Shown: one piece after another, positions 16,350 through 28,500 of the stretch | Numbering within the stretch: position 1 is the stretch's first letter | How the letters are laid out: every line of letters begins with the position of its first letter | Assembly: GCF_009914755.1 (NCBI RefSeq) | Contig: NC_060940.1 | Reading direction: 5' to 3' (one strand) | Length of the DNA: 64,000 nucleotides | Source of the DNA: the human T2T-CHM13v2.0 reference genome, Homo sapiens | The notes under the pieces: model-generated | What the model was told of the DNA's origin: nothing | Databases searched by the model: none | The model's input: the letters and a program-made list of their open reading frames with translations, nothing else | Translations under genes and position numbers: made by a program

Positions 16350-19300
16350 CTACTCAATGACGAGGCAGCGGGGCAGGTGCTGCGAGAAATACTTGAAGAG
16401 CTCGGGGGTGGCCCCGGGGCAGTTGGTCAGCTCCAGCTCCTCCAGCTCCTGCAGCTGCACCAGGCCCGACAGCCCGGTGGTGGTGAGCAGCGGGCAGCCT
16501 GCGGCGGGGTCAGAGGGCGGCTCAGTGCGCGCGGCCCAGGGCTCGGGCGGGGACGGCCGGGCCGCGCCTCCCTCCTCCTCCGCCTCGGACCCGGGACTGT
16601 GTGTCCGCGCCGGGTGTGAGTTTGCACAAGGACCGGGCAGGTTGGGCGGGTGGACTAAGTGGGGGTGGGTGGTCACTGCCAGCGTCAGAGCAGAAACGGG
16701 GGTCTCACCTGCCAGAGACAGGAGGCGCAAACTCCCCAGGGCCAGGAGGTGCTTCAGCCCGAAGTCTTGCACCTGTCGGGAGTGGAGGAGCGACTTAACG
16801 ATTTCCGCTCGCACCGAGGCGGAGGGCACCCTGGGGTCCATGGAGGGCTAGGCGGGTTCAAGCCCGGGGTTCCTCCGTCCCCCCCGGAGCCGGGAGGCGG
16901 CTGGGAAGTGCTCGTGGGGGCCGCCGGGACCCCTGCGTTCCGCTTAGGTCGGCTGCTGGATAGGGAGGGGCCCCAGACTCTCCCAGGATCTGAGTGGGGC
17001 CGGGAGCTCTCCCCGCGCCCCCACCTCCCCGCCGATCCCCCAATCCCGGGGCGTGAGAGCCGGTACCTGGCAGCACCATCGCAGGTAGAGGCTGCGGAGG
17101 GACGACATGGTGGACAGATAGCTGAGGCCAGTGTCCGTGATGCGTACACACCTGTGGTTGCACCAGAGGGGACCCCCACCTTCAAATCACCTGGCCCCGG
17201 CCATCCCTCGTCTTCCTGGGAGTGCCCCTGGCGTGAATCCCTTCCTGCCCCACCCGGAGCAGCCGCTGGCCCCTCCTCGCTCCCACCCACCGGGAAGGAC
17301 GGGGGTCCAGCCAACCCGTGCTGCGGTTCTGCGGTTCCCACTCCCCAGGCTCCGAGGGCTCTGCCCGCCGCGCCACAGCCCCAGCCCCGCCGGAAGCCCC
17401 CGCCCCCGGCCCCGTGCAGCCCCGCCCCGCCCCGCCCCGTGCAGCCCCGCCCGGCCCAGCCCCGCCCGGCGCGGCCCGGGGGCGCGCACCTGTCGAGCAC
17501 GAGCTCCTCTAGGCGGTGCAGGTCGCAGGCCACGTACTCCAGCGCCATGTCGGTGATGCGTGGGCACCACGAGAGGTCAAGGCTGCGCAGCTTGCGCAGG
17601 TTCTCGGCCACGAGCTCCACGCCGTCGTCGGTGACCTTGGAGCAGCCCGAGAGGCTGAGCGCGGTGAGGTTGGGCAGGCTGTGCACCACGTTGACCACGC
17701 CGTGGTTGGTGATCTCCCAGCAGGAGAGCAGGCGCAGCGTGTGCGTGCTGTGGCCCTGGCGCGCCGTGAAGTAGGCCAGCGCCGTGTCCGTCACGTGGTA
17801 GGCCTGCAGGCTCAGCTCCGCCAGGTTGGGCAGCAGCTGCGAGATGGCCGCGATGGCGTCGTCGGCCACGTTGATGCAGTCACTCACGCTCAGCGAGGTG
17901 ATGCGCGCGCTCAGGCTGGACCACAGCCCGGCCTCGGTGAAGTCGTTGCAGCCCGACAGCTCCAGACGCACCACGCCCTGCATCTGTTCAAGCATAACCT
18001 GCAGGCGGGCGGGCGCCGGGTCAGGATTGCAGGAGAAGGGGTGGAGCCCGCAGGGAGGAAGCAGTAGGGTGTAAACATGCAGGGAGCTGAACCCTGAAAA
18101 CATTTGGCAGTGTGTGAGGAGGCGGGGCATCGGGACGAGAGCCCAGGGCCTGGCCAGGGCAGGTGCTGGGGGCGTTGGCACCAGCGTTACAATTAGACTC
18201 CAGACCCGGCTGCCAGGCGGCTCCTCTGACCTCTACTCCTGGGGGATCCTTTCCCAGCTGCCCCTCAGCTCCCCCTCGCATCCTCCCCACACTGCATTTG
18301 TATTTATTTATTTATTTATTTATTCATTCATTCATTCAATCATTTTGAGACAGAGCCTTACTCTGTTGCCCAGGTCCCAGGCTGGAGTGCAGTGGCATGA
18401 TCTCAGCTCACTGTACCCCCCGCCTCCCGGGTTCAAGCGATTCTCCTGCCTCAGTGTCCTCCCAAGTAGCTGGGACTACAGGTGCCCACCACCAGGCCTG
18501 GCTAATTTCTGCATTTTTAATAGAAATAGAGTTTCACCATGTTGACCAGGCTGGTCATGAACGCCTAACCTCAAGTGAGTGGCCTGCCTCGGCCTCCCAT
18601 AGTGCCGGGATGACAGGCTTGAGCCACCGGGCCTGGGCCCTGCATTTAATCCACTGCCCTGCTGCTGCCATCTTGAAAATCTTGAGTGTCTTTGAACAAG
18701 GGACCCACATTTTCGCTTTGCGCGAGGTCCCCTGTAGTCAGTCCTTCTTTCCTCCCACCCCAAAGCCACCATCCGCTCCCACCTCCATAGGGTTGCTGCT
18801 GCCCGCCCCTGCCCCCCAGCCCTGTCCCCCCCACCACCCAGCCTGGGCGCACACCCCCCCCCACCCCAAAGCCACCATCCGCTCCCACCTCCATAGGGTT
18901 GCTGCTGCCCGCCCCTGCCCCCCAGCCCTGTCCCCCCCGAGCCTGGTGCACACCTCGAGGCCTGCGTCCGTGATGGTGGAGCGCTTGAGGCTCATGGCTT
19001 TGACACCCTTCTTGGAGAGCGCATAGTTGTCAATGAACTCACAGATGTCCAGGTCGGAGACGCCAACCAGGCAGAAGCCCTCGAAGCCTCTGGCGGCAAA
19101 ACCCTGCAGGTTCACGAACTCCTTCTCGCCACCAGGCAGCACGTTGTAGAGCTCCTTGGCATGCAGCACCGGCGTGAGGCCTGCCCAGAACTTGGGCTGG
19201 TACAGCACGCGCCGCCAGGCCTTGCACACCTGGGCCAGCACACACTTCTCGCAGGCCGAGAAATACCAGAAGAGCCCATTGAGGATCTTCTCGTCCGTGG

Positions 19301-19586
19301 CCAGCGGCGGCCGCTCCGCTGGGTGCCCAGGTGCCAAGGCTGAGGCTGGTCCACCTGCCGGGGTGCACGGGCCCCCAGCCAGGGCAGCCCGGGACAGTGG
19401 AGCAGCCAGGCTGGGTGGTGGGAGGGTGGGTGGGGGTGGTGGCTGGCAGGGGCGGTTCTTGGTGGCTGGCGTGCCCTTGGTGATGCTGGCCGCACCCAGG
19501 CCGTTGGGCTGGCCCGGCAGCTTCACCAGACCGTTTCGAGGCAAGCATGGAGGCTTGGGGTCGCCGTCGATGCCCGGGCTCGACAT
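16350..19586 (-). CDS. FBXL16: F-box/LRR protein 16, 479 aa
   Basis: Exons 19586-18954, 17998-17490, 17151-17067, 16772-16709, 16498-16350 total 1440 nt; [13 protein letters not shown]..., F-box and LRRs ([13 protein letters not shown]), ends LPRCLVIE*. Confidence 0.98.
18300..18637 (-). mobile_element. Alu
   Basis: Antisense Alu with (TTTA/TTCA)n tail. Confidence 0.93.
18755..18954. repeat. Tandem duplication, about 106-bp period, next to the FBXL16 exon 2 donor
   Basis: ccaccccaaagccaccatccgctcccacctccatagggttgctgctgcccgcccctg... at 18755 and again at 18861. Confidence 0.92.
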
Positions 19587-27149: not shown

Positions 27150-28500
27150 ACCTTGGCCAAGGCCCGGTCCCGCCTCCAGAACCAGGAAGGTGCCAGCCTC
27201 CCCCCACCCTCCTCCTCCCGCGGGCAGTAGCTCAGCGCAGGCCCCGGGTCCAGAAGCCGCCCGCCCGGGGAGGGCCGCCCCTCAGGCCGCACATCCACGC
27301 GACCCCCATGCAGTTTAACGGTCTCTGGCCTGTCACTTCGGTCCGGGGGCGCCCTCTGAGCCGACCAGGCGCCCGGGGTGGAGGCCGGGGGCCTACAATT
27401 CCTCCTTTCGGCGTCCCAGGAGGCACGGACCCCCAGCCCCGGCCGAGTGGCCAGTGGGGAGCGGCCCTCTTCCGGGCCAGGGGCCGGGGCGCGGGGCTGC
27501 GGGAAGGCCAGGCAGGGACCGAGGCCCAGCGGCCGCGGGGGAGGTGGGGAAGGGGCTGCCGTTACGTAAGCCCTTCCCGGGCGGCGGCGGCGCGGCCCCC
27601 ACCCCCACCCCGCCCCCTCCTCATTGTGGCCGCCGCGGAGGTGCGGCCTGGCCCCCTCCCGGCCCCGCAGCCCGGCCGCACGCGCACCTTACCTCGGCCC
27701 GGGCTCCTGGCTCATGCCACGCTGTCCGCCGGGCGACCTCCCGTCATGGGGAGCCCGGCATGGGCGTCGGCGCGCGGGGGCCGCCGGGGTGCTGGACTGG
27801 CCGGCAGGGCCCGGCCGCGCCCTGCGCCCCGCGTCCCGTCCTGGCCGGGCCCCCTCGGCAGCGCACGGAAAGGAGCTCCCCGGTGGGAGAGGATCGGCCG
27901 CCCCAAGCCTCCCACCGGGGAGGCTGAGGCTGTGCCCAGATAAATAAGGCCGCTTTGCAGGGAACCAGGCGGGCGCCTCCTCCTCCCCTCGCCCTCCCCG
28001 CGCTCCTCCGTGGCCGCCGCCGGCGCCGCGCGCGCCCCCCGCCCGGCACCAAACGCCGCGCCCTCGCGCGCTCCCGGCGTGGCGAGCCAATCCGGGTTCG
28101 CGAGCCCGGGCGGGGGCGCCGAGAATGCCGAGCCCCGCCCCCGCCCCGCCCCGGCCCCCGCGCGCGGCGCGCTCCCGGCACGGCGTCCACGAGCACGCGC
28201 CAGGCCCGGCACGCGCCCCCGCCCCGCTCGCCGCGGGCACCCGCACAATAACAAACCCCGGCGCGCGGCGGGCGGGGAGGGCGCGGGAGGCAGAAGGGAG
28301 GGCGAGGGGAGGCGGGAGAGCAGGCGCCGGCGGGTGGCCCAGGGGTCCGGGGTCCTATGGGGACCGGGGCGGCACCGCGCGTCCCGGCCCTTGGCCACCA
28401 CTTGGGGAGGCGAGGAAGGCGAGACCCGGCCCAGAGGAGACAGGGTGGTCAGACCCCCGTCTCTGGACCCTCCCGCCCAGCCCACGGCAAGGACCCTTCA
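27150..28500. promoter_or_regulatory. FBXL16 CpG-island promoter
   Basis: Very CpG-dense, GC boxes, CCAAT near 28087. Confidence 0.8.
27693..27990 (-). other. FBXL16: FBXL16 non-coding exon 1 (5' boundary approximate)
   Basis: Strong donor GAG|GTAAGG at 27693/27692 in a CpG island; matching acceptor CCACAG| at 19600, 14 nt before the ATG. Confidence 0.75.

What the first reader, a model, noticed from the sequence alone, without database searches (positions are those of the whole stretch)
19039..27761. FBXL16 leader: chain of AUGA stop-start uORFs ending in a 194-aa ORF overlapping the main CDS
In exon 1 (minus strand), uORF1 27761-27744 (MPGSP*) has a TGA overlapping the ATG of uORF2 27747-27712 (MTGGRPADSVA*), whose TGA overlaps the ATG at 27715. 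This third ORF crosses the 27693-to-19600 splice ([31 protein letters not shown]...) and runs out of frame over the FBXL16 start to a stop at 19039 (585 nt, 194 aa, including a short hydrophobic stretch WALLVFLGL). Short uORFs followed by an overlapping inhibitory ORF resemble ATF4-type control, and two consecutive AUGA overlaps resemble termination-reinitiation. A stop within exon 2 would also make such translation events NMD-prone. Function is inferred.
Basis: partly seen in the sequence, partly recalled or inferred. Interest (0 to 1): 0.7.

Follow-up and report, generated by a model that had tools for sequence, protein, structure and literature searches.

The report
FBXL16 leader with overlapping upstream ORF
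The human FBXL16 mRNA leader has three upstream start codons, and the last opens a long out-of-frame ORF over the real start; it likely acts as an ordinary brake on FBXL16 translation, while the neat stop-start overlaps and the 194-residue product are probably incidental.

Summary
AUG1 and AUG2 are in poor context; AUG3 has G at -3 and lies 37 nt before the main AUG. A camel gene model starts with the same eight residues as the AUG3 ORF, so AUG3 looks conserved (one species). The long product does not. Two non-human ORFs in this frame end at the same residue, 84 codons earlier and before the hydrophobic stretch, and differ mostly by changes silent for FBXL16. This frame is stop-poor in neighbouring GC-rich genes too. 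A double AUGA chain arises in about 1 of 1000 shuffled leaders, so a genome scan would meet several. No TURBS motif is in place, and a toy scanning model gives no stress induction. Best reading: an ordinary inhibitory overlapping uORF passed by leaky scanning. No Ribo-seq or proteomic evidence was found, but the main catalogues could not be read.

The parts
27693..27982 (-). FBXL16 exon 1 (non-coding in RefSeq), 290 nt, carries all three uAUGs
   Evidence: Annotation given with the task; canonical GT donor
27744..27761 (-). uORF1, 5 codons, poor context (CCC-ATG-C); its TGA overlaps AUG2; 28 nt to AUG3 and 65 nt to the main AUG
27712..27747 (-). uORF2, 11 codons, poor context (CCC-ATG-A), in frame with the FBXL16 CDS; its TGA overlaps AUG3 and is the only in-frame stop of the leader; 33 nt to the main AUG
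27693..27715 (-). AUG3 (GGC-ATG-A) and the exon-1 part of the overlapping ORF; same eight residues at the start of camel model P0023
19039..19600 (-). Exon-2 part of the overlapping ORF, +2 frame relative to FBXL16; stop 85 nt before the exon 2-3 junction
19584..19586 (-). FBXL16 main AUG (AAG-ATG-T), 37 nt after AUG3 in the spliced mRNA
19291..19293 (-). CGA codon of the alternative frame (its C is the third base of FBXL16 Asp98, a CpG); two non-human ORFs in this frame end just before the matching codon, which fits a TGA there
   Evidence: the stop codon is inferred, the DNA was not seen

Best explanation
AUG3 opens an out-of-frame ORF over the FBXL16 start and likely acts as a constitutive inhibitory overlapping uORF: ribosomes that start there cannot make FBXL16, so the protein would come mainly from leaky scanning past AUG3. 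Shown: the three AUGs, their frames, contexts and spacings. Inferred: most 40S subunits scan past poor-context AUG1 and AUG2, a large share start at AUG3, and the rest reach the main AUG 37 nt later. Ribosomes that do translate uORF1 or uORF2 terminate on top of the next AUG, so they would skip it and could reinitiate only further on; the overlaps would work as weak bypasses, not as a relay into the long ORF. The length and sequence of the long product are a by-product of FBXL16's GC-rich codon use. Its termination in exon 2 could add some NMD.
For: Contexts and spacings; 'poor context' as defined in PMC8892498 (passages). PMC10275272 (passages) states that out-of-frame overlapping uORFs typically repress and are passed by leaky scanning, and that short-uORF reinitiation sites lie downstream of the stop. 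PMC5972666 section 16 says an overlap of even 1 nt likely precludes typical short-uORF reinitiation. Camel model P0023 begins with 8 of 8 identical residues; the chance under neutral divergence of 0.16-0.22 per site is 0.04-0.01. Alternative-frame ORFs P0001 and P0002 end at the same residue; 15 of 21 and 15 of 23 of their differences can be explained by changes synonymous for FBXL16, against 86-96% main-frame identity in 10 mammalian proteins. Toy model with assumed ranges: removing AUG3 raises output about 2.4-fold (5-95%: 1.6-5.0), removing AUG1 or AUG2 about 1.1-fold.
Against: No Ribo-seq, initiation or reporter data were found. These blanks are weak but give no support that the uAUGs are used. 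AUG3 conservation rests on 1 of 99 retrieved proteins, a poor gene model that lacks part of exon 2, and exon ends can be conserved for splicing; at 0.08 divergence the match has probability 0.21. The double chain has P of about 0.001 per leader, which 'incidental' must absorb. FBXL16 protein is detected in human cortex, so any repression is partial. The toy model's numbers are assumptions, not data.
Confidence: 0.6

Rival explanations
1. Neutral leader: the uAUGs are little used or have no selected effect, and the match to camel reflects splicing or promoter constraint at the end of exon 1.
For: 41% of shuffled leaders have three or more AUGs. No catalogue entry was found in the files that could be read. 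Conservation rests on one gene model.
Against: AUG3 has a purine at -3 and lies upstream of the main AUG, so scanning ribosomes should use it (established scanning rule). Eight of eight residues are kept in camel.
Confidence: 0.2
2. ATF4-type switch: uORF1 feeds reinitiation at AUG3 when ternary complex is plentiful and at the main AUG when eIF2-alpha is phosphorylated, so stress induces FBXL16.
For: The order short uORF, overlapping ORF, main ORF matches ATF4 (PMC5972666 section 8). uORF1 is short enough to allow reinitiation.
Against: AUG1 is poor-context, so it cannot capture most ribosomes; the spacers are only 28 and 65 nt. In the toy model, output per loaded 40S rose more than 1.2-fold under slow ternary-complex loading in 0 to 0.7% of draws with weak AUG1, and in 18% only when AUG1 was made strong and loading fast.
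Confidence: 0.1
3. Coupled termination-reinitiation relay: ribosomes finishing uORF1 restart at the overlapped AUG2, and those finishing uORF2 restart at the overlapped AUG3, feeding the long ORF.
For: Two consecutive AUGA overlaps, P about 0.001 per shuffled leader. AUGA is a known stop-restart form, and TURBS-free cellular coupling has been reported.
Against: Known cases follow long ORFs and mostly need a TURBS. The only UGGGA lies 167 and 199 nt upstream, outside the uORFs. Even at 50-100% coupling the full chain supplies a median 5% of long-ORF flux in the toy model, and 1% or less at 3-20% coupling. Conservation of AUG1 and AUG2 is untested.
Confidence: 0.06
4. Dual-coding region: the 194-aa product is a functional alternative protein, possibly membrane-bound.
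For: The frame has no stop at 0 of 26 possible positions in the first 181 codons, against 6 of 56 later; P = 0.03-0.06. Primate-specific function is not excluded.
Against: No Pfam family. The only real relatives are two ORFs that end 84 codons earlier, before the hydrophobic stretch. Radical substitutions (R to W, S to P) sit at FBXL16-silent sites. The best 19-residue hydropathy is 1.26, below the usual 1.6 guide for a membrane helix (threshold recalled).
Confidence: 0.04

Closest known systems
Inhibitory overlapping uORFs (oORF/uoORF) of vertebrate mRNAs
   Same: Out-of-frame AUG upstream of the CDS with its stop inside the CDS; translation of the two frames is mutually exclusive and the main ORF is reached by leaky scanning (PMC10275272 passages).
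   Different: Longer than usual (194 codons, my judgement) and preceded by two short uORFs whose stops overlap the next AUG. Translation not shown here.
ATF4 leader (also ATF5, recalled)
   Same: A short uORF upstream of a longer ORF that overlaps the main start (PMC5972666 section 8).
   Different: The first AUG is poor-context, a second in-frame uORF intervenes, spacers are 28 and 65 nt, and no stress induction is known or predicted.
TURBS-dependent stop-restart of caliciviruses and influenza B; SLAMF1 and GAD overlaps
   Same: Stop and start codons share bases (AUGA here).
   Different: The upstream ORFs are 5 and 11 codons, not long cistrons; no UGGGA core near either overlap; the downstream ORFs are not conserved proteins.
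Hox leaders with conserved suboptimal-context uORFs (PMC8892498)
   Same: Poor-context uAUGs whose use would rise when start-codon stringency relaxes (eIF1/eIF5).
   Different: Conservation of AUG1 and AUG2 is untested; the main inhibitory start here (AUG3) is not poor-context. FBXL16 does not occur in that paper's main text.

Membership tests
Inhibitory overlapping uORF | Upstream AUG out of frame with the CDS, stop downstream of the main AUG | tested here: met
Inhibitory overlapping uORF | Start context good enough to capture scanning ribosomes | tested here: met
   G at -3; not poor by the definition
Inhibitory overlapping uORF | Start conserved across mammals | tested here: inconclusive
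   One camel gene model, 8 of 8 residues; no orthologous DNA was available
Inhibitory overlapping uORF | Translated in cells and lowers main-ORF output | not testable with these tools
   No entry in the supplement files that could be read; main catalogues unseen
ATF4-type delayed reinitiation | Short uORF followed by an ORF overlapping the main start | tested here: met
ATF4-type delayed reinitiation | First uORF captures most ribosomes (non-poor context; requirement from my own knowledge of the model) | tested here: not met
   CCC-ATG-C; poor
ATF4-type delayed reinitiation | Main-ORF translation rises on eIF2-alpha phosphorylation | not testable with these tools
   Toy model predicts no rise; no data found
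TURBS-type termination-reinitiation | Overlapping or adjacent stop and start codons | tested here: met
   two AUGA overlaps
TURBS-type termination-reinitiation | UGGGA core shortly upstream of the overlap, inside the upstream ORF | tested here: not met
   Only UGGGA at 27914, 167 and 199 nt upstream and outside the uORFs; the influenza B TURBS spans about 45 nt. A GGGA at 27742 inside uORF2 is not the full core
TURBS-type termination-reinitiation | Long upstream ORF | tested here: not met
   5 and 11 codons; definition
Conserved dual-coding (alternative-frame) protein | Frame open to the same stop and constrained in other species | tested here: not met
   2 of 2 non-human ORFs end 84 codons earlier and vary at FBXL16-silent sites; the stop is inferred from protein ends

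The most novel reading that the evidence does not exclude
The leader is a conserved cellular stop-start cascade: each short uORF's stop is fused to the next AUG so that terminating ribosomes are handed on (or carried past) step by step, without a TURBS, setting how many enter the inhibitory overlapping ORF and so tuning neuronal FBXL16 to start-codon stringency or to recycling factors such as DENR-MCTS1.
Probability: 0.08. Interest if true: 0.7.

Novelty: new member of a known kind. Interest (0 to 1): 0.3.

Why it matters
FBXL16 is reported to affect APP, IRS1 and cyclin D1 levels (search listing titles). An inhibitory overlapping uORF would cap its output and offer a single site (AUG3) where a variant or an antisense oligonucleotide could raise protein; a variant in the uORF2 stop would create an N-terminally extended FBXL16. 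Upstream AUGs are common (about 40-50% of mammalian mRNAs, abstract openings of PMC1402274 and PMC3914846), so this alone is ordinary. It would matter more only if the two AUGA overlaps proved conserved and functional, as a compact cellular test case for restart at an overlapped AUG after a short uORF.

Tried and rejected
Membrane microprotein: rejected on hydropathy (9-residue peak 2.52, 19-residue 1.26) and because the stretch lies after the inferred stop in other mammals.

P0102 (E 1.1e-6): a tandem-repeat protein whose five weak repeats add up; 30% identity over 63 residues; treated as chance.

A cassette exon putting AUG3 in frame with FBXL16 (suggested by the camel and mandrill models): the mandrill-like segment at 21384 has an acceptor but no matching donor in human. 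A strict scan of intron 1 found 2 candidate exons; the only frame-restoring one has a stop. The scan used strict donor and acceptor rules and can miss weak exons.

TSS downstream of AUG3: would leave an exon under 23 nt; the RefSeq start is 267 nt upstream in a 78-81% GC region; no CAGE data seen.

Search for shorter alternative-frame relatives: 0 of 43 candidates. The sigma-70 scan does not apply to a human gene.

Literature: no paper on FBXL16 uORFs. PMC12436190 holds both terms once each, but only its listing was seen, so a link is not excluded. Supplements searched without a uORF hit: PMC10032668 (6 files; completeness of its ORF table not checked), PMC13577902 (12 of 19 files, one cut; atlas limited to 150 aa), PMC11788427 (8 of 9 files), PMC10187264 (1 small file). 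Supplements of PMC13010147, PMC7530721, PMC13275300 and the human-cortex Ribo-seq preprint 10.1101/2021.10.22.465170 were not seen and may list these ORFs. No ESM Atlas result was obtained. No structure was predicted for the low-complexity G/A/P/R-rich product.
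Full report
Observation. The window is human chr16 (annotation given with the task). Splicing the RefSeq FBXL16 exons from the window gives a 304-nt leader, 76% GC, with three AUGs. uORF1 (27761-27744, 5 codons) ends in a TGA that overlaps AUG2; uORF2 (27747-27712, 11 codons) ends in a TGA that overlaps AUG3; the AUG3 ORF crosses the first junction, passes the main AUG 37 nt later in the +2 frame and stops at 19039 after 194 codons. 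In addition, uORF2 is in frame with the CDS and its TGA is the only in-frame stop of the leader. AUG1 and AUG2 have C at -3 and no G at +4, which is 'poor context' as defined in PMC8892498 (passages); AUG3 has G and the main AUG has A at -3.

Chance. Of 40,000 dinucleotide shuffles of the leader, 41% had three or more AUGs and 42 had a two-link AUGA chain; with three AUGs planted, 22 of 20,000 did. About 1 in 1000 is uncommon, but over some 20,000 genes (figure recalled) it predicts on the order of ten to twenty chance cases. The window itself has 10 double chains among 1,201 ATGs on both strands, and of the 3 of 9 annotated leaders that have uAUGs, WDR24 also has an AUGA overlap. The long open frame is partly compositional: FBXL16 has T at only 7% of third positions, and a +2-frame stop needs that T. 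The first +2 stop follows codon 181; synonymous shuffles reach that with P = 0.064 or 0.033, and HAGHL reaches 175. Against the chance reading, 0 of 26 possible stop positions are used in that stretch, against 6 of 56 later.

Conservation of the start. No mammalian DNA could be fetched, so I used predicted proteins. Of 99 FBXL16-like proteins, one, the Camelus ferus model P0023, has an N-terminal extension from exon 1: it begins with the same eight residues as the human AUG3 ORF and maps to 27715-27692. Most others start at the main AUG, and the remaining extensions gave no convincing match to exon 1, so they say nothing either way. If the DNA had diverged neutrally by 0.16-0.22 per site, near what degenerate sites show here, the match would have probability 0.04-0.01; at 0.08 it would be 0.21. 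The model also has four whole codons plus a split codon before its main Met, as in human, so the camel AUG3 would be out of frame too (inferred). The model is poor elsewhere, and exon ends can be conserved for splicing. AUG1 and AUG2 could not be tested.

Conservation of the product. The exon-2 part of the alternative frame has no Pfam match. It found two relatives among 2,214 candidates, none among 43 shorter ones, and in 1.84 billion representatives only P0001 plus a repeat protein judged chance. P0001 and P0002 are mammal-like genomic ORFs that begin in intron 1, match at 72-75% and both end at the residue matching human position 102 of the exon-2 part. That fits a TGA where human has CGA (19293-19291), a silent change in FBXL16 Asp98. 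I could not see the DNA, so a contig end is not excluded, but two different sequences ending at one residue favour a stop. The ORF would then be about 110-114 codons, still overlapping the main start but ending before the hydrophobic stretch. Fifteen of 21 and 15 of 23 differences can be explained by third-position changes silent for FBXL16, including R to W and S to P, while the main frame is 86-96% identical over the same region in 10 mammalian proteins. The hydrophobic stretch peaks at 1.26 over 19 residues. The product looks unconstrained.

Mechanism. By the scanning model most 40S subunits would pass AUG1 and AUG2, many would start at AUG3, and the rest at the main AUG. PMC10275272 (passages) describes such overlapping uORFs as negative regulators passed by leaky scanning, and places short-uORF reinitiation always downstream of the stop. 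PMC5972666 (passages, sections 8 and 16) says that an overlap likely precludes typical reinitiation because ternary complex must be rebound, and that stop-restart usually follows long ORFs with a UGGGA-containing TURBS, although TURBS-free cellular coupling exists at low efficiency. Here the only UGGGA is 167 and 199 nt upstream of the overlaps and outside the uORFs. So a ribosome finishing uORF2 would most likely skip AUG3 and could restart at the main AUG 33 nt on; one finishing uORF1 would skip AUG2 and meet AUG3 after 28 nt and the main AUG after 65 nt.

A toy model with assumed parameter ranges (not data) gives main-ORF output of about 0.27 of a uORF-free leader (5-95%: 0.13-0.44), a 2.4-fold gain on removing AUG3 and about 1.1-fold on removing AUG1 or AUG2. 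Slower ternary-complex loading lowered output per loaded 40S (median 0.83-0.91); a gain above 1.2-fold appeared in 18% of draws only with a strong AUG1 and fast loading. A full AUGA relay supplied 1% or less of long-ORF flux at 3-20% coupling, and a median 5% at 50-100%. The stop at 19039 is 85 nt before the next junction, beyond the 50-55 nt NMD rule (recalled); no NMD study of FBXL16 showed in the five listings.

Literature. Searches for FBXL16 with uORF, upstream open reading, ribosome profiling and nonsense-mediated gave no study of this leader; one paper (PMC12436190, listing only) holds both terms once. No paper held all four overlap-and-bypass terms. Supplement searches were blank for these ORFs in PMC10032668 (6 files), PMC13577902 (12 of 19 files; FBXL16 appears only as the gene and the canonical protein), PMC11788427 (8 of 9 files) and PMC10187264 (1 small file). 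The cortex Ribo-seq preprint's main text does not name FBXL16. The tables most likely to list these ORFs (PMC13010147; PMC7530721; PMC13275300, listing only; the cortex study's tables) were not seen, so the ORFs may already be catalogued.

Verdict. Real features, partly right interpretation. The likely biology is a probably conserved inhibitory overlapping uORF on FBXL16, a new member of a common kind (confidence 0.6). ATF4-type induction (0.1), a stop-start relay (0.06) and a functional alternative protein (0.04) are not supported; a neutral leader remains possible (0.2). Interest 0.3.

Noticed in passing
window 11716-12473 (-), WDR24 leader: A 758-nt leader with five uORFs (AUGs at 12057, 12025, 11992, 11935, 11789); the first ends in an AUGA overlap with the AUG at 11992. 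WDR24 is a GATOR2 subunit (recalled), so translational control could be worth a look.
   Followed up: partly
window 27712-27714 (-): The uORF2 TGA is the only in-frame stop in the FBXL16 leader; readthrough or a variant would give a 23-residue N-terminal extension, and several in-frame CUG/GUG codons upstream end at the same stop.
   Followed up: no
window 48601 (-), CCDC78 leader: An 18-codon uORF in strong context (GCC-ATG-G) ahead of a main AUG with T at -3 (CCT-ATG-G).
   Followed up: no
window 49684-51630 (+), HAGHL CDS: The +2 frame is open for the first 175 codons, as in FBXL16; GC3 is 0.90, and there is no uAUG in the selected leader.
   Followed up: partly
window 27940-27946 (-): An isolated TATTTAT in the otherwise GC-rich exon 1, 36 nt inside the annotated start; could be a TATA-like element for a shorter start, still upstream of all three uAUGs.
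   Followed up: no
window 21354-21384 (-), FBXL16 intron 1: Matches a segment of the mandrill model P0019, which places exon 2 after exon 3; human has an acceptor-like site but no matching donor, so likely a prediction artefact.
   Followed up: partly
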